A stretch of DNA of 64,000 nt from Thermoflexus hugenholtzii JAD2 (GTDB lineage Bacteria > Chloroflexota > UBA11872 > UBA12225), in assembly GCA_945865725.1 (NCBI GenBank), contig CAMBEO010000002.1, forward strand, positions 14,668 to 78,667. The letters are read 5' to 3'. The stretch's first letter is position 1, and each line of letters begins with the position of its first letter. Below, piece after piece: positions 19,623 to 48,284 of this stretch. The notes under the pieces are model-generated. The model did no database searches. It saw nothing but the letters and a program-made list of their open reading frames with translations, and was not told where the DNA came from. The translations under genes and the position numbers were made by a program.

Positions 19623-19678
19623 CCCCCTCCATCGGCCGCAACAAGCACCCCCCAGACGCTTCGCGGGAGAGGGGAGCG
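19623..19678. repeat. palindromic repeat, module B2 variant
   Basis: CCCCCTCCATCGGCCGCAACAAGCACCCCCCAGACGCTTCGCGGGAGAGGGGAGC; closest to the intragenic copy at 45483-45540, sharing CCATCGGCCGCAACA-GCACCCCC. Confidence 0.8.
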
Positions 19679-30037: not shown

Positions 30038-30059
30038 CCCACGAAAGCGTGCGAGAACG

Positions 30060-32783
30060 ATGACCGGGGCACCGCCTCCAGCAACCGTTACCGTGACCGT
30101 CGACGGCAAGGACGTTGCCGTACCGCCGGGAACCTTGGCCGTCGAGGCGGCGCGGATGGCCGGCGTCGACGTGCCGGTGTTCTGCTATCACCCGAAGTTG
30201 TCGCTGGCCGGCGCGTGCCGTATGTGCATGTGTGAGATCGGCATGGCATCGCCGCCCGGGCAGCCCCCGCGCCCGCCGGGACTGATGACCGCGTGCACGA
30301 CCCGCGTCTCCAACGGGATGACGATCAACACCGAGGCGCCCGCCGCGCTGAAGGCGCGCGAGGGGGTGATCGAGTTCCTGCTCATCAACCATCCCCTCGA
30401 CTGCCCGGTGTGCGATGCCGGTGGCGAGTGCCCGCTGCAAGACAACAGCCACGCCTGGGGCCCCAAGGAAGGCCGCTTCACCGAGCAGAAGCGCCTGGCG
30501 CGCAAGGGCGCCGCGCTCTCCCCGCTCGTCGTCCTGGACCAGGAGCGGTGCATCGCCTGCTACCGCTGCACGCGGTTCATGGACGAGGTCCCGGGCGAGG
30601 CCGAGCTGGCGTTCTTCTCCCGGGGATTCGCCTCTGAATTGCGGACCGCCGGCGACGCGCCGATGAAGTCGCGGTTCCAGGGCAACATCATCGACCTGTG
30701 CCCGTGCGGGGCGTTGACCAGCGAGACGTACCGGTTCAAGGCGCGGCCGCAAGACCTTGACCATGCGGACAGCGTCTGCGGGCTGTGCCCCGTCGGGTGC
30801 AACGTGATCCTCGACACCCGGTCGAACCAGGTCACGCGGGTCCGTCCCCGGCAGAACGAGGCGGTCAACGAGATCTGGGTGTGCGACAAGGGGCGCTTCG
30901 CGCACCACTGGTCGTCGAGTCCCAACCGCCTCTCCGGCCCGTGGGTACGCGGGGCGGACGGCCTGCACCCGGCGACGTGGCGGCAGGCCTACCAGGAGGC
31001 GGCGCGTCGCCTCGCGGCCGTCAAGGCGGCGCACGGTGGCGGCGCCATCGGCGTGATCGGCGGCCGGAACCTGACCAACGAGGATGCCCATGCCCTCGCG
31101 CGGTTCGCCGCCGAGGTGCTCGAGACCCCGCACGTCGACTTCCGGGTCGGTGCGCAGGTTGCGGAGGCCAACCCCCTGTCCCCGTTCGGGCTGGACGCGT
31201 TCAACACCGGCCTCGACGCCGCCGAGAAGGCGGGCGCGATCCTCCTGGTCGGCACCGACGTCCACGACGAGGTGCCGGTGCAGTGGCTGCGCATCCGGAA
31301 GGGCGTGAAGGCGGGCGCGCGCCTGGTCGTGGCCGGGCCCCGGGCAACCGAGGCCGACCGCCTCGCGTTCCACCGCCTGCGCCATCGGCCCGGTTCGGAA
31401 CTTGCGCTGCTGGTGGGCATCCTTGCCGCCCTCGTCGAGTCGCCCCCGCTAGATGCCGATGGCGCGCCACGTGACCTGTCCGGCCTCGCCGCGGCAATCG
31501 GCGGGACAGGCGTCGACCAGGCCGCGGTGCACGCCGGCGTGGACGCCGTGACGATCCGCGCGGCGGCGGCGACGCTGGCCGGGGCGCGGGACCCGCTGGT
31601 GTACGTCGGGGCCAGGCTGGCGATCCGGCATGACGCGGGCGCGATCGGCATGGCGGTCGGCAACCTCGGCCGTGCCCTCGGGTACCCGGCGCGCGTGAAC
31701 TTCCTGGTCGAGGGCGCGAACGGGCGCGGCGCCGAGTGGGCCGGCCTCGTCCCGGGGCCCGGTGGCCTGCCGGCGGGACACATCATCGCGAAGGCCGCCG
31801 CGGGCGAGATCAAGGCCCTGTACGTGGTCGGCGAGAACCTCCTGGAGACGCATCCTGACGCCGCCCAGGCGCGCGAGGCGCTGGAACGCGCCGAGGTCGT
31901 CATCGTGCACGAGCTCTTCCCGACGGTGACGGCGCAGGGGGCGGACGTGGTGTTCGCGGCGACGGGCCTGATGGAGAAGGACGGCACGACCACGAGCGTC
32001 GAGGGGCGCCTGCAACGCATCTACGCGGCGGTGCACCCGCACGGATCCGACCGCGTGCCGGACTGGCGGATCCTGAGCGACCTTGCGGCGGCGATGGGCG
32101 CCGGCCTCGGGTACTCGGCCGCGTCCGAGGTCACCAAGGACCTGCTTGCGGACGTGCCGGCATACGCGTCGCTCGAGGGGAAGTTGCCCGGCAGTGCCGG
32201 GGTGCTCGTTCGCGCCGTGGCCGTGCCGGCGGCAGGTGGAGGAGGCTTCCTTACGGCCCCCTTCCATCTGCCGACAGCGCCCCGCGCCGCGGCGGGAGAG
32301 GGAAGCACCACCACCTCCCCCGGGCGGGCAAGGATGCCCGCGGACCAACGGGAGAGGGAAGCACCGCCGGCCGTACCTCCCTCTCCCGCCGCCGCGCTTG
32401 GGGCACTGGCGGCAGGTGGAGGGGCCCTCTTCCTGGTGGCAAGCCCCGAGATCGTCGGCCACGAGACCATCGTCGCCGAGACGCCCGAGCTTCTGTCGAC
32501 GGTGCCGGAGGCGTACGTGGAGGTGAACCGCGACGACGCGGCGCGCCTTGGGATCGTCGCCGGGGGACTGGTCGAGGTTCGGGGTCCCGCGGGTGCAGTC
32601 ACGCGGGTGGCCCGGGTGAACGGCCGTGTCCCGTCAGGCACCTGCTTCGCACCGGAGAACCTCGGCTCGCCCCGGATCAACGCCATCCTCCGTTGGTCGA
32701 CCGAGGTGCCCCTGGTCACGCTCCGGCCGGTGGTCGTCGAAGGCGCGGAGGCCACCGGGGCCGCCGTGGCAGGTGCCCGATGA
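30060..32783 (+). CDS. nuoG: NADH-quinone oxidoreductase subunit G (carries an in-frame repeat-derived insertion)
   Basis: 2Fe-2S CYHPKLSLAGACRMC, HPLDCPVCDAGGECPLQD, CIACYRCTRF and a molybdopterin-like domain. ATG is at 30060. Residues encoded by about 32228-32424 are repeat DNA read in frame. Confidence 0.93.
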   Translation: MTGAPPPATVTVTVDGKDVAVPPGTLAVEAARMAGVDVPVFCYHPKLSLAGACRMCMCEIGMASPPGQPPRPPGLMTACTTRVSNGMTINTEAPAALKAREGVIEFLLINHPLDCPVCDAGGECPLQDNSHAWGPKEGRFTEQKRLARKGAALSPLVVLDQERCIACYRCTRFMDEVPGEAELAFFSRGFASELRTAGDAPMKSRFQGNIIDLCPCGALTSETYRFKARPQDLDHADSVCGLCPVGCNVILDTRSNQVTRVRPRQNEAVNEIWVCDKGRFAHHWSSSPNRLSGPWVRGADGLHPATWRQAYQEAARRLAAVKAAHGGGAIGVIGGRNLTNEDAHALARFAAEVLETPHVDFRVGAQVAEANPLSPFGLDAFNTGLDAAEKAGAILLVGTDVHDEVPVQWLRIRKGVKAGARLVVAGPRATEADRLAFHRLRHRPGSELALLVGILAALVESPPLDADGAPRDLSGLAAAIGGTGVDQAAVHAGVDAVTIRAAAATLAGARDPLVYVGARLAIRHDAGAIGMAVGNLGRALGYPARVNFLVEGANGRGAEWAGLVPGPGGLPAGHIIAKAAAGEIKALYVVGENLLETHPDAAQAREALERAEVVIVHELFPTVTAQGADVVFAATGLMEKDGTTTSVEGRLQRIYAAVHPHGSDRVPDWRILSDLAAAMGAGLGYSAASEVTKDLLADVPAYASLEGKLPGSAGVLVRAVAVPAAGGGGFLTAPFHLPTAPRAAAGEGSTTTSPGRARMPADQREREAPPAVPPSPAAALGALAAGGGALFLVASPEIVGHETIVAETPELLSTVPEAYVEVNRDDAARLGIVAGGLVEVRGPAGAVTRVARVNGRVPSGTCFAPENLGSPRINAILRWSTEVPLVTLRPVVVEGAEATGAAVAGAR
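32228..32424. repeat. intragenic palindromic-repeat composite inside nuoG
   Basis: Module B(+) at 32257-32311, module D(reverse) at 32317-32349 plus a half core at 32350-32364, and module B(reverse) at 32371-32424. It is bracketed by the 15-bp direct repeat GGCGGCAGGTGGAGG (32228-32242 and 32408-32422), 180 bp apart. Confidence 0.9.
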
Positions 32784-33975: not shown

Positions 33976-33983
33976 GACGACCG

Positions 33984-34174: not shown

Positions 34175-34189
34175 CGAAAGGAAAACCTC

Positions 34190-34708
34190 GTGGCGTTCGT
34201 GGAGTTGCAGTCGCCGCCGCCGCCGTCCAACGCGCTTGCAGGCGCCGTGGCGGACGTGACGGCGCTGGCCAAGGGGCTGGGCGTCACCTTGGGGTACCTC
34301 TTCTCGAAGCCGGTGACCATCCAGTACCCGGAGGAACGCCCGCGACTGCCGGCGCGCCACCGGGGGCGCCACGAGCTGGAACGCCACGCGAACGGCCTGG
34401 AGAAGTGCGTCGGGTGCGAGTTGTGCGCCCTCGCCTGCCCGTCGAAGGCGATCTTCGTCGAGGGGGCGGAGAACCCGCCGGACGCGCCGGTGTCGATCGG
34501 CGAGCGGTACGCGAAGACCTACCTAGTGAACATGATCCGATGCATCTTTTGTGGCTACTGCGTCGAGGCCTGCCCGACGGAGGCGCTCCAGCTGAAGCGG
34601 GTGTTCGAGCTGGCGGACTACACGCGCGAGTCGATGATCTACGGCAAGGAGACCTTGCTGGCGCCCGCGCCGAAGCGCGAGGCGGCCGACTCGTGGCTGC
34701 CAGGCTAG
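34190..34708 (+). CDS. nuoI: NADH-quinone oxidoreductase subunit I
   Basis: Two 4Fe-4S motifs, [12 protein letters not shown] and [12 protein letters not shown]; GTG start at 34190. Confidence 0.94.
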
Positions 34709-34727
34709 ACGAGGGACACGTACGGGC

Positions 34728-35279
34728 ATGGAGTTCCTGATCTTTTCCGCCGTCGCGGCCATCGCGATCGCCGCCGGGCTGCTTATGGTCCTGCAGCGGA
34801 ACGCGATGTATAGCGCGCTGTTCCTCGTCGTGGTCTTCTTCTGCCTCGCCGTGATCTACATCCTGCTGGGGGCGTACTTCCTGGCGGTCGTGCAGGTGGC
34901 GGTGTATGCCGGGGCGATCATGGTCCTGATGCTGTTCGTGATCATGCTGCTGAACGTGGCATGGCCCGAGCCGGACGACCGGGTGCTCGGGCTGCTCCGG
35001 CCACTCGGTGCCACGGCGGCCGTGACCTTCGCGATGCTGATGGCCTGGGCGCTCGCGGGCACGCCGGGGCTGCCGTCACCCCTCCCGGGAACGAGCCTGC
35101 CGGTCGGGGCCGCCATGACCCTGGGTCGCGTCGGCGAGGCGCAGGCCGGGCACGTCCAGGAGGTGGCAGTCACGCTGTTCTCGAAGTACCTGCTCCCGTT
35201 CGAGCTGGTGAGCATCCTGCTGCTTGCGGCGATCCTTGGCGCATCGGTACTGGCCCGCAAGCGGCCGGACCACGCCTGA
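34728..35279 (+). CDS. nuoJ: NADH-quinone oxidoreductase subunit J
   Basis: Hydrophobic ND6-like protein ([22 protein letters not shown]); position in the operon. Confidence 0.88.
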
Positions 35280-35310
35280 CGGCACCGGCAAGCGAGGGAC
35301 GGAGGACGAC

Positions 35311-35631
35311 ATGCCAGGGTTTCCGGAGGTGGTTCCGACCGAGGCGTACCTCGGGCTGAGCGCGGTGCTGTTCGGCATTGGCGCGCTGGGCGTGGTCCTG
35401 CGCAAGAGCGCGCTCACCATGTTCATGTCGATCGAGCTGATGCTCAATGCGGTGAACCTGAGCCTCGTCGCCTTCGGCCGACAGTTCGGGCGCCTTGACG
35501 GGCAGGTGATCGTGTTCTTCGTGATGGCGGTCGCCGCGGCGGAAGTTGCCGTCGGGCTGGCGATCATCGTGGACATCTACCGCAGCCGGCGCAGCGTCGA
35601 CATCGACGATGCGAGCTGGCTCCGGGGCTGA
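35311..35631 (+). CDS. nuoK: NADH-quinone oxidoreductase subunit K
   Basis: [19 protein letters not shown] and [14 protein letters not shown]; ATG 35311 follows GGAGGA. Confidence 0.92.
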
Positions 35632-35651
35632 CAGGGCTGCAGTTACGGACC

Positions 35652-37622
35652 ATGACGATGATCGACCTTCTCTGGCTTGTGCCGGTCCTGCCGCTCGCTG
35701 GCGCGGTTGCCCTCCTGGCCGGCGGGCGACGGCTCGGGCGTGGTGCCGTCGTCGCGACCGGCACCGGATCCGTGGCGCTCGCCTTCGTGGTCGCGGCTGG
35801 CGCGGTCACCGACCTGGTGGCCAACGGCCCGGCGATGCGCGGCGTGGAGGTCCACCTCTTCCCGTGGCTGGCCTGGGGCTCGGGAAGTGACGCCGTGACG
35901 GTGGCGGAGGCGGGCCTGCTGCTCGATCCGCTCTCGGCGCTGATGATCCTGGTCGTCACCGGGATCGGGACGCTGATCCACCTGTACTCCAGCGGGTACA
36001 TGGCGGGTGACGAGGGGTTCGCGCGCTATTACGCGTACCTGAACCTGTTCACCTTCTCCATGCTCGTGCTCGTGCTCGCAAACAACCTCGCGCTGCTGTT
36101 CGTCGGCTGGGAGCTCGTGGGCTTCTGCTCGTGGGCGCTGATCGGGTTCTGGTTCGAACGCAAGGCGGCGGCGGCGGCGGGCCAGAAGGCGTTCATCACG
36201 AACCGGGTCGGCGACCTCGGGGTCCTCGCGGCGCTCTTCCTGGTCTGGGCGAACTGGGGGACGTTCAGTTTCCATGCCCTCCCGGGGTCGACGTTGCCGG
36301 GCGTCCTGGACGACCCCGCGCGCGTGCTGGCCACGCCGCTGGTGGCCCTTGCCATTCCGTTGCTCCTGCTGCTCGGGGTGACGGGCAAGTCCGCCCAGAT
36401 CCCGTTGTTCACGTGGCTCCCTGACGCCATGGAGGGGCCCACGCCCGTCTCGGCGCTTATCCACGCGGCGACGATGGTGACGGGGGGCGTCTACCTGGTG
36501 GCGCGCGTGCATCCGCTCTTCGACCAGTCGCCAGAGGCGCAGCTCGTGCTTGGGACCACCGGCGCCGTGACCGCGTTCGTTGCGGCGACCATCGCGACGG
36601 TGCAGGTCGACGTCAAGCGGGTGCTGGCCTACTCGACGGTAAGCCAGCTCGGGTTCATGGTCCTCGGCCTCGGGGCGGGAGCGTACGGGGCGGCGGCCTT
36701 CCACCTGATGACCCACGCCTTTTTCAAGGCCTTGCTCTTCCTTGGCGCCGGCGCGGTCATCCATGGCGTAGCAAGCCAGCAAGACTTGCGGAAGATGGGC
36801 GGGCTGATCCGGTACATGCCGGTGACGGCTTGGACCTTCATCGTCGGGTGGCTCGCGATCATCGGCGTCCCGGGGCTTTCCGGCTTCTTCTCGAAGGACC
36901 TGATCCTCGCCCGGGCGTTCGGGAGAGGTCTCGTCGATCCTGCGTTCCTCGTCCTCTTCGGGGTGGCGCTGGTGACCGTCGGGATCACCGCCTTCTACAT
37001 GTCCCGACTGGTGTTCCTTGCGTTCCTGGGCGAGTACCGGGGCGGGTCGGTGCACCCGCACGAGGCGCCGCCCTCGATGCTGGTCCCGCTGGTGGTCCTG
37101 GCCATTGGCTCGATCGGGGCCGGGTGGGTCGGGATCCCTCCGTTCCTGCTTGGGGAAGCCGGGCATGCGACGGTGATCGAGCAGTTCCTCGCCCCCGCCA
37201 CCCTTGCGACCGGCACTTGGGAGGGCACGCTTGACCATTCCACGGAGTGGATCATCACTGGCCTCTCGGTGGCGATCACGCTCGCAGGCGCCGGGCTGGC
37301 CGGGGTGGCCTACCTGGGCGAGGGACCGATCAGCCCGGTCGTCACCGAGCTGGTCGCCCCCTTCAGGCGCCTGTTTGCCGGGCGCTGGTTCGTCGACGAG
37401 GCACACGGGGCCCTGGTCATCCGCCCGCTGGCCCGGGTGGCGTCGTTCCTCGCGTCGGTCGACGTGGGCGTCGTCGATGGCGCGGTCGCGCTCGTCGTGG
37501 CGGGGGTACGCGGCATCGGTGCGCTCCTCGCCCGGTTGCAGTCCGGGTACGTGCGGGGCTACGCGGTGACCATGCTGGTCGGCGCGGTCGCCGTCGTGGC
37601 ATCGGCGTGGGCGCTGCGATGA
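35652..37622 (+). CDS. nuoL: NADH-quinone oxidoreductase subunit L
   Basis: GWELVGFCSWALIGFW and GKSAQIPLFTWLPDAMEGPTPVSALIHAATMV. Confidence 0.95.
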   Translation: MTMIDLLWLVPVLPLAGAVALLAGGRRLGRGAVVATGTGSVALAFVVAAGAVTDLVANGPAMRGVEVHLFPWLAWGSGSDAVTVAEAGLLLDPLSALMILVVTGIGTLIHLYSSGYMAGDEGFARYYAYLNLFTFSMLVLVLANNLALLFVGWELVGFCSWALIGFWFERKAAAAAGQKAFITNRVGDLGVLAALFLVWANWGTFSFHALPGSTLPGVLDDPARVLATPLVALAIPLLLLLGVTGKSAQIPLFTWLPDAMEGPTPVSALIHAATMVTGGVYLVARVHPLFDQSPEAQLVLGTTGAVTAFVAATIATVQVDVKRVLAYSTVSQLGFMVLGLGAGAYGAAAFHLMTHAFFKALLFLGAGAVIHGVASQQDLRKMGGLIRYMPVTAWTFIVGWLAIIGVPGLSGFFSKDLILARAFGRGLVDPAFLVLFGVALVTVGITAFYMSRLVFLAFLGEYRGGSVHPHEAPPSMLVPLVVLAIGSIGAGWVGIPPFLLGEAGHATVIEQFLAPATLATGTWEGTLDHSTEWIITGLSVAITLAGAGLAGVAYLGEGPISPVVTELVAPFRRLFAGRWFVDEAHGALVIRPLARVASFLASVDVGVVDGAVALVVAGVRGIGALLARLQSGYVRGYAVTMLVGAVAVVASAWALR

Positions 37623-37735
37623 GGTGGGGCATGGTCCGCGTCCTTCCCTCTCCCGCCGCAGCGTGGGGCGCTTGCGGCAGATGGAAGGGGGCCGTCTTGG
37701 GTGGGGCATGGTCCGCGGGCATCCTTGCCCGCTCC
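37623..37735. repeat. nested repeat: module B (reverse) inside module D, in the nuoL-nuoM gap
   Basis: The 18-bp direct repeat GGTGGGGCATGGTCCGCG (37623-37640 and 37700-37717) flanks a reverse module B (37641-37690). Module D continues as GGCATCCTTGCCCGC, with hairpin GCGGGCA-TCCT-TGCCCGC at 37715-37732. Confidence 0.9.
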
Positions 37736-37791
37736 GGGATGCTGGGTGACGTGCGGGCTTTGGTGGGCCGGCAGGATCGGGTGAGGCTCAC

Positions 37792-39324
37792 GTGAACGGA
37801 CTGCCACTGATCTCGATCATGCTCGCCGTGCCACTGCTTGGCGCGGCGTGGACGCTCGCCGGCGGGGCAGGCGCCCGGTGGATCGGCATGCTGGCGGCGG
37901 GCGCGACGTTTGCCCTGTCCGCCGCGCTGTGGGTGGGCCACGTGCCGGGCGGGCCCGCATTCCAGTTCGAGGAACGCGTCGCATGGTTGCCTGACCTCGG
38001 GATCAGCTACCACGTGGGGATCGACGGCGTGAGCCTGCTCCTCGCGCTGCTGACGACGGTGTTCGTGCCGATCGCGCTGGTCGCGTCCGCCACGACGGTC
38101 ACCACCCGGGTCCGGGAGTTCGTCGCGCTCGTGCTCGTGCTCGAGTTCGCGATCCTCGGGGCCCTGGTCTCGCTCGACCTCTTCGGCTTCTACGTGTTCT
38201 TCGAGCTCATGCTCGTGCCGACGTTCCTGCTCGTCGGGATCTGGGGCGGGGCACGACGCGCGGCGGCGGCGATGCAGTTCTTCCTGTACACGATGGTCGG
38301 GAGCGTTGCGATGCTCGTGGGGATCATCGCCCTCGGCCGGTCGCGCGGGACCTTCGACTACGTCGAACTGCAGGCGTCGCTGGCAAGGCCTGGTGGCGCG
38401 CTTTCGGGCACCGACGAGATGTGGCTGTTCGTGGCCTTCGCCCTCGCCTTCGCGATCAAGGTCCCGCTCGTCCCGATGCACTCGTGGCTGCCGGAGGCGT
38501 ACGTGCAGGCCCCGCTTCCGGTCACCGTCCTGATGTCGTCGGTGATGGTGAAGGTCGGCGCCTACGGGTTCCTTCGCTTCTGCCTCGGGCTGTTCCCCGG
38601 TGCCGCGCAGGAGGCAAGCTGGGTGGTTGCGCTCCTCGCCACCATCGGGATCGTCTACGGCGCACTGGTGGCGTCCCGGCAGCGGGACTTGAAGCGGCTG
38701 GTCGCCTGGTCGTCGATCAGCCACCTCGGGTTCGTGATGCTCGGCTTGGTCGCGGCGACGACGGAAGCGATCCAAGGCAGCGTGATCCAGATGGTCAACC
38801 ATGGCGTGTCGACGGGAGCCCTGTTCCTGCTCGTCGGCATGCTTCACGAGCGGGCGCGCACGTGGGCCATCGACCAGTTTGGCGGCGTGGCACGTGCGAT
38901 GCCGGCCTTTGGGGCGGCGCTGGTGCTCGTCGTGTTCTCGTCGGCGGGGCTGCCATTCACGAACGGGTTCACGGGCGAGTTCCTGATCCTCATCGGGACG
39001 TTCCGCTCGCCCGCGACGCACCTGCAGGCCTTCGCCATCGTCGGGGCGACCGGCGTGGTCCTCGGTGCGCTGTACCTGCTGCGGATGTACCGGAAGGTCA
39101 TGCAGGGACCCGTCAACCCGGCGTTCATCTCGCCCGGAGGTGACGGTCCCCAACGCGTCACGATCGCGGACTTGACAGGGCGCGAGGCGTGCCTGCTCGC
39201 ACCGCTGGCCGTGCTGATCTTCTGGATCGGCGTGTATCCGAAGCCGTTCCTCGACCAGACTGCACCAGCGGCCCGGACGGTCGCCGCTGCCGTGGGCGGC
39301 GAGGCGGGCAAGGCACCGCGCTAG
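37792..39324 (+). CDS. nuoM: NADH-quinone oxidoreductase subunit M
   Basis: ND4-like: KVPLVPMHSWLPEAYVQAPLPVTVLMSSVMVKVGAYGFLRF; GTG start at 37792. Confidence 0.94.
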   Translation: MNGLPLISIMLAVPLLGAAWTLAGGAGARWIGMLAAGATFALSAALWVGHVPGGPAFQFEERVAWLPDLGISYHVGIDGVSLLLALLTTVFVPIALVASATTVTTRVREFVALVLVLEFAILGALVSLDLFGFYVFFELMLVPTFLLVGIWGGARRAAAAMQFFLYTMVGSVAMLVGIIALGRSRGTFDYVELQASLARPGGALSGTDEMWLFVAFALAFAIKVPLVPMHSWLPEAYVQAPLPVTVLMSSVMVKVGAYGFLRFCLGLFPGAAQEASWVVALLATIGIVYGALVASRQRDLKRLVAWSSISHLGFVMLGLVAATTEAIQGSVIQMVNHGVSTGALFLLVGMLHERARTWAIDQFGGVARAMPAFGAALVLVVFSSAGLPFTNGFTGEFLILIGTFRSPATHLQAFAIVGATGVVLGALYLLRMYRKVMQGPVNPAFISPGGDGPQRVTIADLTGREACLLAPLAVLIFWIGVYPKPFLDQTAPAARTVAAAVGGEAGKAPR

Positions 39325-39367
39325 CGGGGCGGGTTGGTCGGCGCCGGGTACGCGCCCGCCGTGGAAG

Positions 39368-40876
39368 GTGGATCTCATGACGTTTGCCCTGCCCGCGCTC
39401 GACTGGTGGGCGATCGCACCGATGCTGGTGCTGGTGCTGACCGGCTGCGCGACGCTCGTCGCCGAGCTCGTCCGGGGCGACGACGCCGGGCGCGCGCCCC
39501 TGGCGTGGTTGACGGTCGCCGGCGCGTCCGTGTCCGGGGGCATCGCGCTCGGCCAGTGGGATGACCCCGCGCGCCTCGCGTTCAGCGACATGGTTTCGTC
39601 CGACCGGTTCACGCTGTTCTTCACGGTGTTGTTCTTGGTGGTGACCTGCGTGACGGTGCTTTTCGCCTTCGAGCAGTTACGGCGCGAGGACTTCCACCCG
39701 GGCGAGTTCTATCCACTGCTGGCGTTCTCGACGATCGGGATGGTCCTGATGGCCGCGGCGGCGGACCTCGTGATCACCTTCATCGGCGTGGAGCTGCTGA
39801 GCATCTGCCTGTACATCCTGGTCGGCTTCTCGCGCCGGCGCCGCGAGCCCGAGGAGTCCGCGATCAAGTACCTGTTGCTTGGCTCCTTCGCCTCGGCGTT
39901 CCTGCTCTATGGGATCGCGCTGGTGTACGGAAGCACGGGCACGACAAGCCTCGCGTGCGTCGGGCGGGCGCTGGGCGCACCGGGTGGCCTGGTGGGCGCG
40001 TGCGAAGGGGCCGTCGCGACCGGGAGCGTGGCGACCGGGATGCTCCTCGCCGGCATCGGCCTGCTCGTCGTCGGCCTCGGGTTCAAGGCGGCGCTGGTGC
40101 CGTTCCACTCGTGGGCCCCTGACGTGTACGAGGGGGCGCCGACGGCGATCACGGCGTTCATGAGCGTCGGCGTGAAGGCTGCCGCGTTCGCGGCGCTGCT
40201 GCGCGTGTTCCTCGTGGCGTTCCCGACCCTCGCGCCCGACTGGTCCGTCCTGCTCGCGGTGGTGGCGACGGTGACGATGGTGACCGGGAACACGGTGGCG
40301 CTGTTCCAGCGGAACATCAAGCGCATGCTCGGGTACTCCAGCATCGCGCACGCCGGCTACCTCCTCGTCGCGATCGTCGCGGCGAGCCACGCCGGGGCGG
40401 CGAGCTTGCTGTTCTACGCGGTCGGCTACGCCGCGATGAACCTGGGCGCGTTCGCGATCGTGGTCGTGCTCGGGCGGGCGGGGGAGGAGCGCGTCGCGAT
40501 CAGCGACTATGCGGGCCTGTCGCAACGGCAGCCCCTGCTCGCGGCACTGATGGCGACATTCATGTTCGCCCTGGCCGGGGTCCCGCCAACCGTCGGCTTC
40601 GTTGGCAAGTTCTACGTGTTTTCGGCGGCGGTCGATGCCGGGTACGTCTGGCTCGCGCTCGCTGGGCTAGCCTCCAGCGTGGCAAGTGCGTACTACTACC
40701 TGCGTGTCGTTTATCAGATGTACATGGTCGATCCGAAAGAAGTCGTCGCGAGTCACTCGCCGCATCGTTGGGTTTCCCTCGTCGCGACGGTCGCGGGGTT
40801 CGCTGTGATCGCCCTGGGCGTGTTCCCGGGCGGGATCATCGGGGTCGCGACCGCCTCAACCTCGTTCGTGAGGTAG
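39368..40876 (+). CDS. nuoN: NADH-quinone oxidoreductase subunit N
   Basis: ND2-like: FKAALVPFHSWAPDVYEGAPTAITAFMSVGVKAAAF. Start at GTG 39368 or ATG 39377. Confidence 0.93.
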   Translation: MDLMTFALPALDWWAIAPMLVLVLTGCATLVAELVRGDDAGRAPLAWLTVAGASVSGGIALGQWDDPARLAFSDMVSSDRFTLFFTVLFLVVTCVTVLFAFEQLRREDFHPGEFYPLLAFSTIGMVLMAAAADLVITFIGVELLSICLYILVGFSRRRREPEESAIKYLLLGSFASAFLLYGIALVYGSTGTTSLACVGRALGAPGGLVGACEGAVATGSVATGMLLAGIGLLVVGLGFKAALVPFHSWAPDVYEGAPTAITAFMSVGVKAAAFAALLRVFLVAFPTLAPDWSVLLAVVATVTMVTGNTVALFQRNIKRMLGYSSIAHAGYLLVAIVAASHAGAASLLFYAVGYAAMNLGAFAIVVVLGRAGEERVAISDYAGLSQRQPLLAALMATFMFALAGVPPTVGFVGKFYVFSAAVDAGYVWLALAGLASSVASAYYYLRVVYQMYMVDPKEVVASHSPHRWVSLVATVAGFAVIALGVFPGGIIGVATASTSFVR

Positions 40877-40893
40877 CAGGTGGGGACGGACAG

Positions 40894-41031
40894 CCCCCAC
40901 CATCGTTATCCGCGTACGCGATCCCTCCCCCGCTGCGGCGGGAGAGGGAAGCACTGTCGCCCTCACCACTACCCTTACCCCCACCCTCAGTCCCTCCCCC
41001 GCTGCGGCGGGAGAGGGAGGGAGTACGCCCC
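40894..41031. repeat. palindromic-repeat cluster: module C + module A, in the nuoN-argF gap
   Basis: Module C at 40894-40954 (core 40923-40949). Module A at 40977-41031 (core 40992-41018) is 55/55 identical to 42074-42128. Confidence 0.95.
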
Positions 41032-41058
41032 ATCATCCAGCCTGAGGAGGCTTCGGCC

Positions 41059-42045
41059 GTGACCAATGACATCGACACGTTCGAGAGTGCCCGCGTCCCC
41101 CACGCGCCCGCCGAGGCCTTGCGGGGGCGCGACGTGCTGTCGATCGCGGATTTCAGCGCGGCGGAGCTTCGGACGATCCTGCGCCGGGCGCACGCGCTGA
41201 AACTGGAGCGGCGGTCAGGCGTCCCGCACCGCATCCTCGAAGGCCGGACGCTGGCAATGATCTTCGAGAAGCCGAGTCTGCGGACCAGGTGCACTTTTGA
41301 GACCGGCATGACCCAGTTCGGCGGGCACGCGATCGACCTGGCGCAAGAACACATGCAGATGGGAACGCGCGAGAGCGTGCCCGATGTCGCGCGCAACCTG
41401 GACCGCTGGGTTGACGTGATCATGGCGCGGGTCTACTCGCACCGGACGGTCGTCGAGCTGGCTGCTCACGCGAAGGTGCCGGTGATCAACGGGCTGTCTG
41501 ACTTCAGCCATCCGTGCCAGATCCTCGCGGACCTCCAGACGATCGAGGAGCGCCTGGGTCGCCTGACCAGCTTGAAGATCGCGTACGTGGGCGACGGCAA
41601 CAACGTGACGAACTCGCTGATCTTCGCGGCTGGCGTGCTTGGCCTTGACCTGCACGTGGGGGCACCGGAGGGCTTCCAACCGGACGCCGCGGTCCTCGGC
41701 CGGGCGCGGGCGCTCGCGTCGCGCAGCGATGGCGAGATCGTCGTCCACACCAACCCGGCTGACGCGGTGGACATGGCGGACGTGGTCTATACCGACTCAT
41801 GGGTCAGCATGGGGCAGGAGGGCGAGTCCGGGTCCCGCCTGAAAGTCTTCCCGCCGTACCAGGTGAACGCCGCCCTGATGGCGCGGGCCCGGCCGGAGGC
41901 GATCGTGATGCACTGCCTTCCGGCCCATCGCGGCCTTGAGATCACGGACGAGGTGATGGACGGGCCGCAGTCGGTCGTGTTCGACCAGGCCGAGAATCGG
42001 TTGCATGCGCAGAAGGCGCTCCTTGCACTCGTGCTCGGCGCCTAA
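41059..42045 (+). CDS. argF: ornithine carbamoyltransferase
   Basis: FEKPSLRTRCTFE, HPCQILAD, DGNNV and HCLPAHRGLEITDEV. GTG 41059 sits 8 nt after GAGGAGG; the ORF is open from 40768 only through repeats and the nuoN 3' end. Confidence 0.93.
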   Translation: MTNDIDTFESARVPHAPAEALRGRDVLSIADFSAAELRTILRRAHALKLERRSGVPHRILEGRTLAMIFEKPSLRTRCTFETGMTQFGGHAIDLAQEHMQMGTRESVPDVARNLDRWVDVIMARVYSHRTVVELAAHAKVPVINGLSDFSHPCQILADLQTIEERLGRLTSLKIAYVGDGNNVTNSLIFAAGVLGLDLHVGAPEGFQPDAAVLGRARALASRSDGEIVVHTNPADAVDMADVVYTDSWVSMGQEGESGSRLKVFPPYQVNAALMARARPEAIVMHCLPAHRGLEITDEVMDGPQSVVFDQAENRLHAQKALLALVLGA

Positions 42046-44323: not shown

Positions 44324-44418
44324 CGGTACGGCCTGCACGGCCCGGTCGTTAGATGCCGGGAGGACCGGGTGCGGCTGGCTGGACGTCGGCGCTCCCGGTG
44401 CTGGGGTTTGGAGAATCC

Positions 44419-46122
44419 ATGGGAGACAGCGGAGCGGCGGGTGACGTGGGAGGGATGTCCGCGGACCGCGCGTACCGCTACCGCGTGCGCCGTGGCGTCG
44501 CGGAATGGTTCGACGGAGTGGCGGCGACGCGGCGGGAGTGGCGCGCGCGCAACGCGTACTACCACGGTGAGATCGCGCGGCTCGCGCGGCAGGTCATCCC
44601 GCCCGGCGCGCGCGTCCTGCTGCTCGGGTGCGCGACTGGCGACCTCCTCGCCTCGCTGCGCCCGTCTTTCGGGGTCGGTATCGACGTCAGTGGCGCGATG
44701 GTTCGCGAGGCGAATGCCCGGTGGGGACGTCCGGACGCAATCCCTGGCAGCACCCTCGCGTTCGTACAGGCCGACGCGCAAGAGTTGCCGTTCGCTTCGA
44801 GGTTCGACTTCATCGTCTGTTCCGACCTCCTCGGCTACCTCGAGGACATCCAGGCCATGCTGGTAGGCCTGCACGCGGTCTCGACGCCGCGGACGGCCAT
44901 CCTCGTCACGTCGTGGAACTGGGCGTGGCAACCGGCCCTGTGGCTTGCCGAACGGGTCGGCGCGAAGATGCCCGACCCGGGCCAGAACTGGTTGGGCCGG
45001 AACGACATCGAGAACCTGTTCGCCCTCTCCGACCTTGAACCGCGTGCGCGCGAGGCCGCGGTGCTGTCTCCGGTCAACCTCCCGGTCTTGGGTCCGCTCG
45101 TCAACCGGATCTTGATAAAGGTGCCTGCGCTGCAGCACTTGGCCCTCGTGCACGCATGGGTCGTGCGGCCCAAGGGGTTCCGGCCGGCACCGGAGGCCCT
45201 TTCGACGACGGTCCTCGTGCCGTGCCGGAACGAGGAGGGCAATATCCGCGCGGCGGTAGACCGCCTGCCCAAACTCGGGTCGCACGTGGAACTGATCTTC
45301 GTCGATGGCGCGTCGACGGACGGGACGCGGGCGGCGATCCTCGAGGAGATCGAGCGGTACCGGGGCGTGCGGGACATCAAGCTGCTCGACCAGGTTCCGG
45401 GGCCGGACAGTCGGCCTGACCCGAACTCGCCGTTCGCCGCGACGACCGGGTTCGTGAACGGCGGGTTGGTGGCGCCCGTTGCTCCCTTCCATCGGCCGCA
45501 ACACGCACCCCCAAACCCTGCGGCGGGAGAGGGAGGCACCATCGGCCCGGTGATCATGCTGAAGCTGGGCAAGGGCGACGCGGTACGCAAGGGCTTCGCC
45601 GCGGCGTCCGGGGACGTGCTGTTCATTCTTGATGCCGATTTGACGGTGCCCCCGGAGGACCTGCCGAAGTTCCTCGAACCGATCGCGGCGGGCCGGGCGG
45701 AGTTCGTGAACGGGACGCGCCTCGTTTACCCGCTCGAGGACGAGGCGATGGGTCCGATCAACTTCGTGGGAAACCGGTTCTTCAGCATCGTCTTCACGTG
45801 GCTGCTGGGACAGCCGATCAAGGACACCCTGTGCGGGACGAAGGTGCTGCGCCGATCGGACTACCGGATGCTGGCGGCGAACCGCGGGTACTTCGGGGAC
45901 TTCGACCCGTTCGGGGACTTCGACCTACTGTTCGGCGCGGCGAGGCTGGGCCTTCGAATCCTCGAGGTGCCAGTGCGGTACCGGCGACGGACGTCGGGCT
46001 ACTCCAAGGTGCTGGTCTTCAAGCACGGCATCCTGCTCCTGCAGATGAGCGTGATCGGGTTCCGGCGCCTCAAGCTGGCCCGCTGGCTCGGGCGTTCGGT
46101 GCCACCATCGGTCCCGGGATGA
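44419..46122 (+). CDS. SAM-dependent methyltransferase / family-2 glycosyltransferase fusion (carries an in-frame repeat)
   Basis: N-terminal class I methyltransferase region (ARVLLLGCATGDLLASL, DFIVCSDLLGYLEDI). C-terminal GT2 region (VLVPCRNEEGNI, FVDGASTDGT, GKGDAVRKGF, FILDADLTVPPEDL). ATG 44419 follows GGAGA. Repeat module B2 is read in frame at 45483-45540. Confidence 0.8.
   Translation: MGDSGAAGDVGGMSADRAYRYRVRRGVAEWFDGVAATRREWRARNAYYHGEIARLARQVIPPGARVLLLGCATGDLLASLRPSFGVGIDVSGAMVREANARWGRPDAIPGSTLAFVQADAQELPFASRFDFIVCSDLLGYLEDIQAMLVGLHAVSTPRTAILVTSWNWAWQPALWLAERVGAKMPDPGQNWLGRNDIENLFALSDLEPRAREAAVLSPVNLPVLGPLVNRILIKVPALQHLALVHAWVVRPKGFRPAPEALSTTVLVPCRNEEGNIRAAVDRLPKLGSHVELIFVDGASTDGTRAAILEEIERYRGVRDIKLLDQVPGPDSRPDPNSPFAATTGFVNGGLVAPVAPFHRPQHAPPNPAAGEGGTIGPVIMLKLGKGDAVRKGFAAASGDVLFILDADLTVPPEDLPKFLEPIAAGRAEFVNGTRLVYPLEDEAMGPINFVGNRFFSIVFTWLLGQPIKDTLCGTKVLRRSDYRMLAANRGYFGDFDPFGDFDLLFGAARLGLRILEVPVRYRRRTSGYSKVLVFKHGILLLQMSVIGFRRLKLARWLGRSVPPSVPG
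45483..45540. repeat. intragenic palindromic repeat (module B2) inside the GT2 domain
   Basis: TCCCTTCCATCGGCCGCAACACGCACCCCCAAACCCTGCGGCGGGAGAGGGAGGCACC, translated as APFHRPQHAPPNPAAGEGGT. It lies between the GT2 DxD-proximal strand and the GKGDA motif. Confidence 0.85.
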
Positions 46123-46147: not shown

Positions 46148-46981
46148 TTGACCTGGAGGTACGTCGAGGTCCGCGACCGGGACGGGCCGCTTTGGCGTCG
46201 CCTCCTGGGCGTATGGCGCCAACGCCGGTTGCTGCAACGCATGGCGCAACGAGACTTGCGGCAACGCTATGCGGGGGCGTCGCTGGGCACGTGGTGGGCG
46301 GTCGTGAACCCGCTGGTCTTCGTGGGCGCCTACACGCTGCTCTTCACGGTGATCTTTCGCGCACGGCTGACGCCGGACTCGGCGCCATCGGCCTACGCGC
46401 TGTACGTGGTAAGCGGCCTGTTGCCGTGGGTCGCGTTCACCGAGGTGGCGACGCGCGCGACGCAGACGGTCGCGGAGCACCGCGCCCTGATCAAGTACAC
46501 GATGTTCCCGGCCGAGTTGCTGCCGCTGACGGGCCTCTATGGGGCCATGCTCTCGCAGGTGGCCGGCTTTGTCGTCGTGGCGGGGGTAGGCATCATCGTG
46601 ACGGGAAACGTGCCATCCGGCGCGCTCTGGATCGTGCCGGCACTCGTGAGTCAGGTCGTGTTCCTGGCGGGGGTTGCCTGGCTGCTCGGGGCGGTGGGCG
46701 CGGCGTTCCGCGATGCACGCGAGGTCATCCAGATCCTTCTCACTGCGGGCATGTTCTTCACGCCAATCTTCTTCGACCCAAGCACGCTGCCCGCCCCCCT
46801 GCGCGCGGTTGTCCTGCTCAACCCGGTTGCACCACTCATCGAGGCGTTCCGGGGGGCAATCCTCGGCGCCCCGGTGGACGTGTCACGCCTCGCTGCCTTC
46901 GGCGCGCTTGCCGTGGTGCTTGCGATCGCCGGCTTCGCCGCCTTCGAACGTGTGCGGGGCGAACTTGCCGATGCCCTCTGA
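46148..46981 (+). CDS. ABC-2 type polysaccharide/teichoic-acid export permease (Wzm/TagG-like)
   Basis: RDLRQRYAGASLGTWWAVVNPLVFVGAYTLLFTVIF and six predicted TM segments. The TTG 46148 start is uncertain. Confidence 0.82.
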   Translation: MTWRYVEVRDRDGPLWRRLLGVWRQRRLLQRMAQRDLRQRYAGASLGTWWAVVNPLVFVGAYTLLFTVIFRARLTPDSAPSAYALYVVSGLLPWVAFTEVATRATQTVAEHRALIKYTMFPAELLPLTGLYGAMLSQVAGFVVVAGVGIIVTGNVPSGALWIVPALVSQVVFLAGVAWLLGAVGAAFRDAREVIQILLTAGMFFTPIFFDPSTLPAPLRAVVLLNPVAPLIEAFRGAILGAPVDVSRLAAFGALAVVLAIAGFAAFERVRGELADAL

Positions 46982-48284
46982 CGCGGTGGGCGTACCGGCA
47001 ATCTCCGTCGCCGGCGTCTCGAAGCGGTACCGTGTTTATGCGCGGCCGATTGATCGCCTGGTCGAAGTGGTGTCGCGCCGGTCGCGGCACCGGCCGTACT
47101 GGGCGCTTCGCGACGTCTCGTTCGACGTGGCGCGTGGCGAGATCCTCGGTCTTGTCGGCCGGAACGGCGCGGGCAAGACCACGCTGCTCCGCCTCCTGAC
47201 TGGCGTCACCCGGCCAACCTCGGGCGTGATCGACATCCGGCATCGGATGGCGGCGATCCTGGAACTCGGGAGCGGCTTCCACCCGGAGTTCACTGGTCGC
47301 GAGAACGTCTTCCTTGGCGGTGCGGTCATCGGCATGGATGACGACGAGATCCGGCGCAAGTACGACGCGATCGTCGAGTTCGCCGAGCTCGGGCCGTACA
47401 TGGACATGCCGTTCAAGACGTACTCGCTCGGGATGCAGGCGCGGCTGAGCTTCGCGGTGGCGTCAAGCGTCGATCCCGAGATCTTGATCATCGACGAGGC
47501 GCTTGGCGCCGGGGACGGGGCGTTCATCGCAAAGTGCTTCGAGCGGATCCGCCAGATCTGCGACAGCGGCGCGACCGTGCTCTTCGTGTCGCACAACACG
47601 TACCTCGTGCAACGGCTCTGCCGTCGAGCGATCTGGCTTGACCAGGGGCGGGTCGTCGCCGACGGGGACCCGGCGACGATCGTGCGCGACTACGAGGCAC
47701 TCCTGAGATCGGTGGCGCAGGAAGAGGCGATGGCGCGGAACCGGGGAGCCCTCGAGCGCTTCGAGGATGCGCCGGCGCTACTGGACGCGTCGGCCTCCCG
47801 GAGGCCGCAGGCCGCGCACCGGTGGGGCACGGGCGAGGTGCGCTTCACCTCGGTCGAGGTCCTCGGTCCCGACAGACAGCCAACGACCTCGGTGTTCAGC
47901 GGCGAGCGGGTGCAGGTGCGCCTGCGATTTGACGGGCACTCGGCTGACCGCGACTTGGCGCTTGTGGTGACGGTCCACCGGGAGGACGGGGTCGTCGCGG
48001 CGACCTTCGACGCACGCGAAGCGGGGGTGGCGTTCGGGCCGATCGATGGGCCGGGGGAAGCAATGCTCACCCTTGACCCTGTCCTGCTCGGGCAGGGGAG
48101 GTACCTGGTCTCGCCACACCTCTATCGTGACGCGTTTGGAGTCGTTCGCCCCGACGACGTCCTCGACTTCCATGACCGCATGTACGAACTGACCGTGACG
48201 CGCCCGGGGCGACCGTATGACGTCGCGATGGAGCACCCCGCCACGTGGCACGTCCAATCGGCGGGGACTCACACGCCGGGGTAG
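46971..48284 (+). CDS. polysaccharide ABC exporter ATP-binding protein with C-terminal glycan-binding-type domain (Wzt/TagH-like)
   Basis: Walker A GRNGAGKTTLL, signature YSLGMQARLSFA and Walker B ILIIDEALGAGD. A C-terminal extension of about 190 aa (RWGTGEVRFTSVEVLGPD...VQVRLRF...) resembles Wzt C-terminal domains. The ATG overlaps the permease stop. Confidence 0.85.
   Translation: MPSDAVGVPAISVAGVSKRYRVYARPIDRLVEVVSRRSRHRPYWALRDVSFDVARGEILGLVGRNGAGKTTLLRLLTGVTRPTSGVIDIRHRMAAILELGSGFHPEFTGRENVFLGGAVIGMDDDEIRRKYDAIVEFAELGPYMDMPFKTYSLGMQARLSFAVASSVDPEILIIDEALGAGDGAFIAKCFERIRQICDSGATVLFVSHNTYLVQRLCRRAIWLDQGRVVADGDPATIVRDYEALLRSVAQEEAMARNRGALERFEDAPALLDASASRRPQAAHRWGTGEVRFTSVEVLGPDRQPTTSVFSGERVQVRLRFDGHSADRDLALVVTVHREDGVVAATFDAREAGVAFGPIDGPGEAMLTLDPVLLGQGRYLVSPHLYRDAFGVVRPDDVLDFHDRMYELTVTRPGRPYDVAMEHPATWHVQSAGTHTPG

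What the first reader, a model, noticed from the sequence alone, without database searches (positions are those of the whole stretch)
45483..45540. Second in-frame repeat insertion, inside the catalytic GT2 domain of the methyltransferase-glycosyltransferase fusion
Module B2 (TCCCTTCCATCGGCCGCAACACGCACCCCCAAACCCTGCGGCGGGAGAGGGAGGCACC) is read through as APFHRPQHAPPNPAAGEGGT. It sits within a ~55-aa Pro/Gly-rich stretch between IKLLDQ and the conserved KLGKGDAVRKGF of the GT2 fold, where typical GT2 enzymes have only a short loop. Its closest relative is the copy at 19623-19678, upstream of or possibly within the N-terminus of the VanW gene. A second independent in-frame case argues that the nuoG insertion is not a one-off accident.
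Basis: partly seen in the sequence, partly recalled or inferred. Interest (0 to 1): 0.6.

Follow-up and report, generated by a model that had tools for sequence, protein, structure and literature searches.

The report
Hairpin repeat translated inside glycosyltransferase loop
A short hairpin DNA repeat that litters this lake bacterium's genome has overwritten about 20 residues of a floppy surface loop in an otherwise intact sugar-transferase gene and is read through in frame, one of about 28 genes treated this way, much as in Rickettsia.

Summary
Window 45483-45540 is a true member (B2 subfamily; 48.3 bits, E 1.5e-12) of a hairpin repeat family with about 450 copies in this 2.3-Mb Chloroflexota genome. 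It is nearly absent from two same-genus genomes. It is translated in frame as APFHRPQHAPPNPAAGEGGT (residues 377-396) of an intact methyltransferase-GT2 protein.

The interpretation needs one correction. The ~55-residue loop is not made by the repeat. Close relatives in the family carry a long loop there, with a hypervariable ~22-residue segment at its end. In this genome that segment (72 nt, against 66 nt in relatives) has been replaced by repeat-derived sequence, a net gain of only 2 residues.

AlphaFold2 puts the peptide in a disordered loop (pLDDT 37-57) of a confident model. Contigs from three lake-metagenome studies reproduce the allele exactly.

Genome-wide, 57 of 449 copies lie inside ORFs, against 86% expected from random placement. 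Thirty-eight of them lie deep inside 28 genes, including Mfd, a DnaE-type polymerase, Lon, MutL, QueA, UvrD, LarC and NuoG. They are read mostly in the frame giving PSPAAAGEG-like peptides.

This is best read as tolerated selfish or recombinogenic DNA filtered by selection, as with Rickettsia palindromic elements. It is ordinary in kind, but a clean new example from another phylum.

The parts
44353..46122 (+). ORF of the methyltransferase-GT2 fusion protein (589 aa as listed; the true start is probably the ATG at 44422, residue 24, where the orthologues begin)
   Evidence: ORF list. Pfam Methyltransf_25/23/11 at residues 64-229 and Glycos_transf_2 at 1.1e-22. 78-sequence alignment with more than 100 invariant columns, all kept by the window protein. 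AF2 model with pLDDT 84 and pTM 0.84.
45394..45561 (+). Extended loop (residues 348-403) between strand IKLLDQ and the conserved LGKGDAVRKGF helix of the GT-A fold; long in the close relatives, shorter in distant homologues
   Evidence: Alignments. DPMS and GpgS have about 16 residues here. Residues 363-393 have pLDDT below 50.
45473..45544 (+). Segment that cannot be aligned with orthologues (72 nt against 66 nt in same-genus orthologues): the ancestral hypervariable piece has been replaced by repeat-derived sequence
   Evidence: DNA alignments. Shuffle test: window segment against B2 consensus scores 48 (null 5.6 +/- 2.1); relatives' segments against B2 give p > 0.5, but against each other p = 0.004-0.15 among the three closest and weaker for the more divergent L002.
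45483..45540 (+). B2-subfamily hairpin repeat unit, translated as A377-T396 (APFHRPQHAPPNPAAGEGGT)
   Evidence: nhmmer 48.3 bits, E 1.5e-12. Predicted hairpin CUCCCUU..GCCGCA / UGCGGC..GGGAGAG is retained, but its energy is not exceptional for this composition (z = -0.35).
45539..45547 (+). Second copy of CCATCGGCC (the first is at 45489-45497, inside the unit's left arm); probably the start of a truncated second unit rather than a target-site duplication
   Evidence: Read directly from the sequence. In tandem arrays the next unit starts CC(C/T)TCCAT(C/T)(T/G)GCCGC straight after GCACC(ACC).
19623..19678 (+).
   Evidence: nhmmer 45.6 bits; 80% identity over 50 nt.
32257..32424 (.). Two B1-type units (32257-32311 +, 32373-32424 -) read through in nuoG; the forward unit is read in the same phase as the GT2 unit ([19 protein letters not shown])
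   Evidence: The same-genus NuoG orthologues lack both.
46148..48284 (+). Downstream polysaccharide ABC exporter genes (Wzm-like permease; Wzt-like ATPase with Wzt_C): context for the enzyme's role
   Evidence: ORFs. Syntenic loci L001-L003 carry PF01061, PF00005 and PF14524 at the same positions.

Best explanation
A unit of a species-specific, high-copy hairpin repeat family has become part of the coding sequence of a methyltransferase-GT2 enzyme. The family is REP/BoxC-like and has no recognisable transposase in the assembly. The unit, with the first bases of a second unit, now occupies the hypervariable tip of a long, disordered surface loop between a beta-strand and the GKGD helix of the GT-A fold. 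It replaces about 66 nt of ancestral loop sequence with about 72 nt.

The unit has no stop codon in this frame, the length change is a multiple of three, and the loop is structurally unconstrained. The enzyme therefore most likely stays functional, and the allele persists as neutral or nearly neutral 'selfish DNA in a gene'.

Selection acts as a filter. Copies are about seven-fold depleted from ORFs. The survivors sit in linkers and loops and are mostly read in the frame that gives small, flexible residues (P, S, A, G, E).

Shown: family membership, in-frame read-through, absence from orthologues, replacement rather than net insertion, predicted disorder of the loop, reproducibility of the allele, and recurrence across the genome. 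Inferred: neutrality, the copying mechanism, and how the ancestral segment was lost (insertion followed by deletion, or template switching or conversion).
For: - Family membership: 48.3 bits, E 1.5e-12.
- Lineage specificity: the core GCGGCGGGAGAGGG occurs 303 times in this genome, against 1 and 11 in the two same-genus genomes and about 0 in 28 other relatives.
- Absence from orthologues: no trace of the repeat in 22 orthologous GT loci, even at E <= 10 with filters off, and none in three 21-kb syntenic loci.
- Replacement: flanks align at about 80-85% identity, while the 72-nt segment is unrelated to the relatives' 66 nt. The relatives' segments still resemble each other.
- Intact enzyme: every invariant column of a 78-sequence alignment is kept, including the D427-x-D429 motif.
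- Structure: AF2 pLDDT 84 overall, but 37-57 over residues 371-400.
- Reproducibility: Logan contigs from three runs in three studies span the site with 0 differences and no repeat-free joint.
- Genome-wide: 57 of 449 copies lie inside ORFs against 86% coding sequence (p about 1e-268), and 38 lie deep in 28 genes.
- Validation: same-genus orthologue ORFs span both flanks for Mfd, DnaE2, Lon, QueA, UvrD, LarC, NuoG, DUF6909 and two others. One of these is a clean +36-nt insertion. Pfam matches lie on both sides of, or span, the repeat in eight of ten host proteins scanned.
- Frame bias: A-type copies in five open frames count 14, 5, 0, 10, 14. Five of six forward B-type copies, including the GT2 and nuoG copies, use the APFH...AAGEG frame.
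Against: - The near-equal length of the lost and gained sequence (66 against 72 nt) is an odd coincidence for insertion followed by deletion. It hints at a replacement-type mechanism or at selection on loop length, and neither was tested.
- No transposase of the REP-associated type was found (PF01797 absent), so mobility is inferred only from the copy-number burst. The genome is 85% complete.
- Neutrality is not shown. There are no expression or proteome data; the RNA runs from the same study hold none of the stretch.
- Gene calls for the genome-wide tally come from my own crude codon-usage caller. Some 'inside' cases may be two genes joined by a stop-free spacer, for example C103 and C58.
Confidence: 0.8

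Rival explanations
1. The repeat-derived segment has been co-opted. Either the mRNA hairpin (translational pausing between sub-domains, or mRNA stability) or the Pro/Ala/Gly peptide (a flexible tether or interaction motif) gives a benefit, so selection keeps in-frame copies.
For: The copy is still 91% identical to its nearest relative and keeps both hairpin arms. There is a frame bias towards PSPAAAGEG-type peptides. One older repeat in DnaE2 is shared with a same-genus genome, and its sequence is nearly unchanged between the two genomes in the printed alignment.
Against: The hairpin energy is unremarkable for this composition (z = -0.35). The host genes are functionally unrelated. Orthologues work without the repeat. 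Intergenic copies show no orientation bias relative to flanking genes. The loop is hypervariable in relatives, which argues for weak constraint. Frame bias is equally expected from purifying selection against harmful peptides.
Confidence: 0.08
2. The loop tip was already repeat-derived in the ancestor of the genus. It has decayed beyond recognition in relatives, and in this genome it is kept 'fresh' by gene conversion from the ~450 other copies.
For: The hypervariable segment in relatives (66 nt) is about the size of one unit. An Arg-Pro pair and a Gly-rich patch fall at similar positions. Older, partly decayed in-frame copies do exist elsewhere (DnaE2, DUF6909 protein, C26).
Against: Relatives' segments show no similarity to the B2 consensus (p 0.5-1.0; nothing at E <= 10). 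More distant homologues from other phyla, whose genomes lack the family, also have a variable linker here.
Confidence: 0.06
3. Artefact or dead gene: the repeat marks a mis-assembly through a repeat, or the gene is a pseudogene whose frame is open by chance in a GC-rich genome.
For: The genome is a 106-contig metagenome bin. Open frames are common at 70% G+C.
Against: Both flanks are the same gene, collinear with orthologues and in the same frame. Contigs from three runs in three studies reproduce 474-551 nt across the site without a difference. All invariant residues are kept and the fold is confidently predicted. The coding score is high on both flanks, 26 and 35 bits per 180 nt.
Confidence: 0.02
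4. Chance resemblance: a Pro/Gly-rich, GC-rich loop happens to look like the repeat.
For: The composition of the loop and of the repeat are similar.
Against: E 1.5e-12 against the whole genome. Alignment score 48 against 5.6 +/- 2.1 for shuffles. Both arms match the consensus, 17 of 18 and 22 of 23 by direct reading.
Confidence: 0.01

Closest known systems
Rickettsia palindromic elements (RPE; Ogata et al. 2000 Science 290:347, as summarised in PMC10969869)
   Same: A dispersed palindromic repeat family whose copies are often found in frame inside unrelated housekeeping genes. They add a peptide without destroying the protein, at sites compatible with the fold. The same logic applies of selfish DNA filtered by selection.
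   Different: RPEs are about 100-150 bp, occur in reduced obligate intracellular Alphaproteobacteria, and nearly half of the copies in some families are intragenic. Here the units are 36-60 nt, the host is a free-living lake Chloroflexota, only about 13% of copies are in ORFs, and the GT2 copy replaces loop sequence instead of adding to it. No sequence relationship was found or expected.
REP / BIME elements mobilised by RAYT (IS200/IS605-like Y1) transposases (PMC2817692, PMC3733652, PMC3116915)
   Same: Short GC-rich imperfect palindromes in hundreds of copies. They are mostly intergenic, often in arrays between genes of operons, and lineage-specific.
   Different: No Y1_Tnp (PF01797) gene in the 85%-complete assembly. 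No GTAG or CGTC head in the B2 unit (by reading). Arrays are largely direct repeats rather than alternating. Classical REPs are by definition extragenic.
BoxC / PIT / TMECO intrastrand-triplex repeats of E. coli and other bacteria (PMC4666352)
   Same: The A-type units of the family have a CCCTC-rich / GGGAG-rich hairpin followed by a third G-rich block, which is the three-block layout described for BoxC. Both are intergenic, of unknown mobility, and associated with local length variation.
   Different: The unit in the GT2 gene is B2-type: two blocks plus an inner GCCGCA/TGCGGC hairpin, with no third block. blastn of an A-type array against 5,426 E. coli genomes found nothing. In the passages of that paper I read, BoxC elements are described only relative to neighbouring ORFs and intergenic regions, not as translated.
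Polyprenyl-phosphate glycosyltransferases of family GT2 (DPMS 5mlz/5mm1, ArnC 9asc, GtrB-type)
   Same: The host domain has the same GT-A fold (Foldseek E 2e-13 to ArnC, 2e-9 to DPMS), the GKG and DxD motifs, and a C-terminal amphipathic helix region.
   Different: It has an N-terminal SAM-methyltransferase domain and a 56-residue loop where the solved enzymes have about 16 residues. The loop is long only in the close relatives, not specific to this genome.

Membership tests
The genome's own hairpin repeat family (B2 subfamily) | Significant match to a profile built from other copies, with both arms present | tested here: met
   48.3 bits, E 1.5e-12; 52 of 57 identities to C17:27797-27855.
RPE-like in-frame selfish repeats (functional class) | Copies of a dispersed palindromic family lie inside ORFs without breaking the frame, in several unrelated genes | tested here: met
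   38 copies deep in 28 ORFs. 10 clusters confirmed against same-genus orthologues. Pfam matches on both sides of, or spanning, the repeat in eight of ten host proteins.
RPE-like in-frame selfish repeats (functional class) | The inserted peptide lies at the protein surface or in a loop, compatible with the fold | tested here: met
   Residues 377-396 fall in a segment with pLDDT 37-57 between strand 341-346 and helix 407-417 of a model with pTM 0.84. This is a prediction only.
Rickettsia palindromic elements proper | Sequence homology to one of the RPE families; about 100-150 bp unit | tested here: not met
   Units are 36-60 nt. Homology to RPEs was not searched. It works like an RPE but is not a member.
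REP/RAYT system | A cognate Y1 (RAYT) transposase gene in the genome | tested here: not met
   PF01797 has no match at E <= 0.01; the control genomes gave matches. Caveat: the assembly is 85% complete.
REP/RAYT system | Conserved GTAG or CGTC tetranucleotide at the head of the palindrome | tested here: not met
   Neither motif is present in the 58-nt unit or in the B2 consensus (read).
MITE | Terminal inverted repeats plus a target-site duplication | tested here: not met
   At the one clean insertion (C76, +36 nt) the flanks CACC | CTGA show no duplication. At the GT2 site the CCATCGGCC repeat is part of the unit itself.
BoxC / PIT intrastrand-triplex motif | Three consecutive homopurine or homopyrimidine blocks able to fold on one strand | tested here: not met
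   For the B2 unit in the GT2 gene only two such blocks are present (CTCCCTTCC and GGGAGAGGGAGG). A-type units elsewhere do have three, by reading. No E. coli match.
Glycosyltransferase family 2 (host protein) | Pfam PF00535 above the gathering score, DxD motif, GT-A fold | tested here: met
   81.2 bits against a cut-off of 23.3. D427 and D429 are invariant. Foldseek hits ArnC and DPMS.

The most novel reading that the evidence does not exclude
These hairpin units may spread by a copy-and-overwrite process, for example template switching at a hairpin or microhomology-driven conversion at the replication fork. Such a process could replace a similar length of unconstrained, GC-rich target DNA. 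Together with selection on the encoded frame, this would make the repeat family a general 'loop-swapping' engine that rewrites disordered linkers of housekeeping proteins in a free-living bacterium. The near one-for-one replacements in the GT2 gene (66 to 72 nt) and in the C26 protein would be its footprints.
Probability: 0.1. Interest if true: 0.65.

Novelty: new member of a known kind. Interest (0 to 1): 0.4.

Why it matters
In-frame palindromic repeats are a textbook curiosity known at scale mainly from Rickettsia. This genome gives an independent, dense example in a free-living Chloroflexota: about 450 units and about 28 host genes, several of them for DNA repair or replication proteins. 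Close relatives almost lack the family, so insertions can be dated and delimited base by base. That makes it a good natural experiment on which protein sites tolerate 12-60 extra residues, on how selection filters reading frames of selfish DNA, and on how such transposase-less hairpin repeats move. For the glycosyltransferase itself the practical message is modest. The gene is very probably functional, and the odd peptide should not be annotated as a domain or used as a phylogenetic character.

Tried and rejected
1. Flank-window classifier. I classified sites by coding score in 120-300 nt windows on each side of every repeat. It was too insensitive, calling only about 60% of random windows coding. 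I replaced it with an ORF-based caller.
2. Decayed-repeat idea. The idea that the relatives' loop is a decayed repeat was rejected by nhmmer at E <= 10 with --max and by a shuffle test.
3. RAYT search. A search for a RAYT transposase found none.
4. Hairpin stability. The hairpin is predicted, but z = -0.35 against shuffles, so it is not informative.
5. BoxC link. blastn against all complete E. coli genomes gave no match.
6. Transcript evidence. Three metatranscriptome runs from one of the studies hold none of the stretch's words. I did not lay them.
7. P0001 contig. No DNA was available for it.
8. Chimeric query. A 2,906-aa version worked.
9. Incomplete orthologue checks. Five of 15 intragenic clusters (DnaE, MutL, AddA, a GT gene, C34) had no two-sided orthologue in the fragmentary same-genus bins, so they remain unconfirmed by that test. 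MutL is supported by Pfam domains on both sides.
Full report
**1. What is at the site**

They are unique in the window at up to three mismatches, with none expected in shuffles.

They lie in the ORF 44353-46122 (+, 589 aa) and are read as APFHRPQHAPPNPAAGEGGT, residues 377-396. Pfam finds a SAM-methyltransferase domain (residues 64-229) and a GT2 domain. The GT2 match is split into two stretches, and the profile resumes at residue 405.

The window is contig C2:14668-78667 of a 2.30-Mb, 106-contig, 70% G+C metagenome bin. Homologues are named Chloroflexota. The runs that hold the stretch are lake and freshwater metagenomes.

**2. The repeat family**

The window holds about 20 units of a GC-rich hairpin family. 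In the whole genome the core GCGGCGGGAGAGGG occurs 303 times. It occurs once and 11 times in the two same-genus genomes and essentially never in 28 further relatives.

I built profiles for three subfamilies:
- A: ...TCCCTCCCCCGCTGCGGCGGGAGAGGGA...
- B1: CCTTCCATCTGCCGCAAGCGCCCCGCGCTGCGGCGGGAGAGGGAAG
- B2: B1 with a longer central loop, CAACAAGCACCCCCCAAC

Together they find 449 non-overlapping units in 296 clusters, about 1% of the genome. The unit in the GT2 gene is B2, at 48.3 bits and E 1.5e-12. Its nearest relative genome-wide is C17:27797-27855 (52 of 57 identities).

No Y1/RAYT transposase gene is present in the 85%-complete assembly. Intergenic units show no orientation bias relative to their neighbouring genes.

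**3. Insertion or replacement?**

The protein has thousands of homologues with the same two-domain architecture. The nearest are 79-84% identical and 559-563 aa long.

Alignment shows that the long loop after IKLLDQ is not peculiar to this genome. Close relatives carry VPGPDSRPDPNSPFAATTGFVNGRFVA, then a hypervariable stretch of about 22 residues, then (D)AGPVIMLKLGKGD. More distant homologues from other phyla have a shorter variable linker at the same place.

I fetched orthologous DNA from two metagenome contigs (L001, L002) and from both same-genus genomes (L005, L006). These loci are syntenic: nuo genes, OTCase, DAC, YbbR, this gene, then Wzm/Wzt.
- The flanks align at roughly 80-85% identity.
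- Window 45473-45544 (72 nt) has no similarity to the 66 nt (60 nt in L002) that the relatives have there.
- In a shuffle test the window segment scores 48 against the B2 consensus (null 5.6 +/- 2.1). The relatives' segments score at chance against B2 (p 0.5-1.0). The three closest relatives (L001, L005, L006) still resemble each other (p 0.004-0.15), while the more divergent L002 is mixed.
- nhmmer with filters off and E <= 10 finds no trace of the family in any of 22 orthologous loci, nor anywhere in the three 21-kb syntenic loci. The corresponding window region has about a dozen units.

So the derived state is in this lineage, and it is a replacement. About 66 nt of ancestral loop tip have gone and about 72 nt of repeat-derived sequence are there, a net gain of two residues.

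The 9-nt string CCATCGGCC occurs both in the unit's left arm (45489-45497) and just after the unit (45539-45547). In tandem arrays the next unit begins in just this way. I therefore read the second copy as the stump of a second unit, not as a target duplication.

**4. Is the gene alive and the sequence real?**

The window protein keeps every one of more than 100 invariant columns of a 78-sequence alignment, including D427-x-D429 and the GKGD motif.

AlphaFold2 with that alignment gives pLDDT 84 and pTM 0.84. Residues 363-393 are below 50, and the blocks 371-380, 381-390 and 391-400 average 37, 45 and 57. The repeat peptide is thus in a predicted disordered loop between strand 341-346 and helix 407-417.

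The best fold matches of the GT half are ArnC (9asc, E 2e-13) and DPMS (5mm1). By sequence, DPMS and GpgS have about 16 residues where this protein has about 72.

Logan contigs from three runs belonging to three different studies cover 474-551 nt across the site with no difference and no joint that skips the repeat. One is a 9.8-kb contig at depth 26. One of these runs may be the source sample, and contigs hide rare variants. Mis-assembly is nevertheless excluded. No RNA run holds the stretch.

**5. Genome-wide scan**

With no gene caller in the box, I trained a codon log-likelihood model on 748 long high-GC3 ORFs and selected ORFs greedily, giving 1,889 genes and 86% coverage.
- 382 of the 449 units are intergenic and 10 overlap an ORF end.
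- 57 (12.7%) lie wholly inside an ORF, against 86% expected for random placement (p about 1e-268).
- 38 of these are at least 150 nt from both ORF ends, in 28 genes.

To validate the calls, I joined +/-85-residue windows around 15 intragenic clusters into one query and searched the two same-genus genomes.
- For 10 clusters a single orthologous ORF spans both flanks: Mfd, a DnaE-type polymerase, Lon, QueA, UvrD, LarC, NuoG, a DUF6909 protein, C26 and C76.
- Eight of ten host proteins scanned have Pfam matches on both sides of, or spanning, the repeat. These include MutL, which had no two-sided orthologue.
- Most cases are net insertions. C76 is a clean +36 nt with no target duplication.
- C26, like the GT2 gene, shows almost no net length change.
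- One unit in the polymerase is shared with a same-genus genome, and its sequence is nearly unchanged between the two in the printed alignment, so some insertions are older.

**6. Reading frames**

The palindrome encodes PSPAAAGEG in one frame of either strand. Among A-type intragenic units the five open frames are used 14, 5, 0, 10 and 14 times. The two PSPAAAGEG frames take 28 of 45, and the Cys/Arg/Lys/His-rich frame takes none. My chi-square estimate gives p of about 0.003.

Five of six forward B-type units use the frame APFH...AAGEG(S/G)T, including both the nuoG unit ([19 protein letters not shown]) and the GT2 unit.

This is what a selection filter on the encoded peptide would give. A small bias from my codon-based caller cannot be ruled out.

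**7. Explanation**

The best reading (confidence 0.8) is tolerated selfish or recombinogenic DNA. A lineage-specific burst of hairpin units has hit coding sequence many times. Selection has removed copies that shift the frame, bring a harmful peptide or hit structured regions. Survivors remain in disordered linkers.

In the GT2 gene the survivor overwrote the least constrained 22 residues of an already long loop. How the ancestral 66 nt were lost is not resolved. It could be insertion followed by deletion under selection on loop length, or a replacement-type event such as template switching at the hairpin.

The rivals are:
- co-option of the hairpin or peptide (0.08);
- an ancient repeat kept fresh by conversion (0.06);
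- artefact or pseudogene (0.02);
- chance resemblance (0.01).

Evidence for and against each is given in the Rival explanations section.

**8. Comparison with what is known**

The behaviour matches Rickettsia palindromic elements, which integrate in frame into unrelated genes at sites compatible with the fold (review PMC10969869, citing Ogata et al. 2000 and 2002). The elements here differ in size, host and sequence, and only about 13% of copies are intragenic, so this is 'works like', not 'is a member'.

The units resemble REPs in size, copy number and intergenic arrays. They fail two defining tests, having no RAYT gene and no GTAG/CGTC head.

A-type units have the three-block layout of BoxC/PIT/TMECO repeats (PMC4666352). 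The B2 unit in this gene does not, and no E. coli match was found.

Earlier notes of this scan on the same genome reached similar views: BoxC-like repeats, and an RPE-like insertion in nuoG. I treated them as leads. My orthologue alignment independently confirms the nuoG case. My PF01797 search does not support a transposase link in this assembly.

**9. Verdict**

- The kind of thing is known. The instance is a clean new example from another phylum, with useful near-repeat-free relatives for comparison.
- Interest is 0.4.

Noticed in passing
G000 C15:8117-8161 (locus L055) and L024 (G002): A 'PLSREAGEGQGVG'-type unit inside the HHH region of a DnaE-type polymerase is shared with a same-genus genome, and its sequence is nearly unchanged between the two in the printed alignment. 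It is either an old insertion under some constraint or a recurrent hit at the same site.
   Followed up: partly
G000 C103:464-2878 and C58:906-3491: Two long ORFs look like pairs of normally separate genes (a Mur-ligase-like part plus a glutamine-amidotransferase-like part, and two GT4 glycosyltransferases) joined in frame through a stop-free repeat unit. These are either real repeat-mediated gene fusions or artefacts of my stop-to-stop gene caller.
   Followed up: no
G000, several ORFs (C9:54796, C58:2116, C17:10027, C43:14414, C21:26762); window 33976-34010 and 40885-40920 for the module: The module GTTATCCG(C/A)GTAC(G/T)CG that precedes some A-type units reads, on the opposite strand, ...(S/P/A)RTRITM with an ATG a short way downstream of the GGGAG-rich arm. 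Such units might supply a ribosome-binding-like site and a start codon to downstream genes.
   Followed up: no
window 44353-44424: The ORF's first 23 codons have no counterpart in the 559-563-aa orthologues, which begin at the position of the window's M24. The true start is probably the ATG at 44422.
   Followed up: partly
window 45394-45472: The first 26 residues of the loop (VPGPDSRPDPNSPFAATTGFVNGxxV) are well conserved within the genus and partly across the family (SPFAAT), yet are predicted with low confidence. They may bind a partner or the methyltransferase domain.
   Followed up: no
window 28000-41100 compared with L001/L002:1-6600: In this genome the spacers between nuo genes hold arrays of one to three units. 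The syntenic nuo operons of relatives have spacers of 20-50 nt and no units.
   Followed up: partly
G000 C8:14710-16131: An ORF contains five tandem A-type units read as (P)[12 protein letters not shown] repeats. It may be a repeat-built low-complexity protein or a spurious ORF.
   Followed up: no
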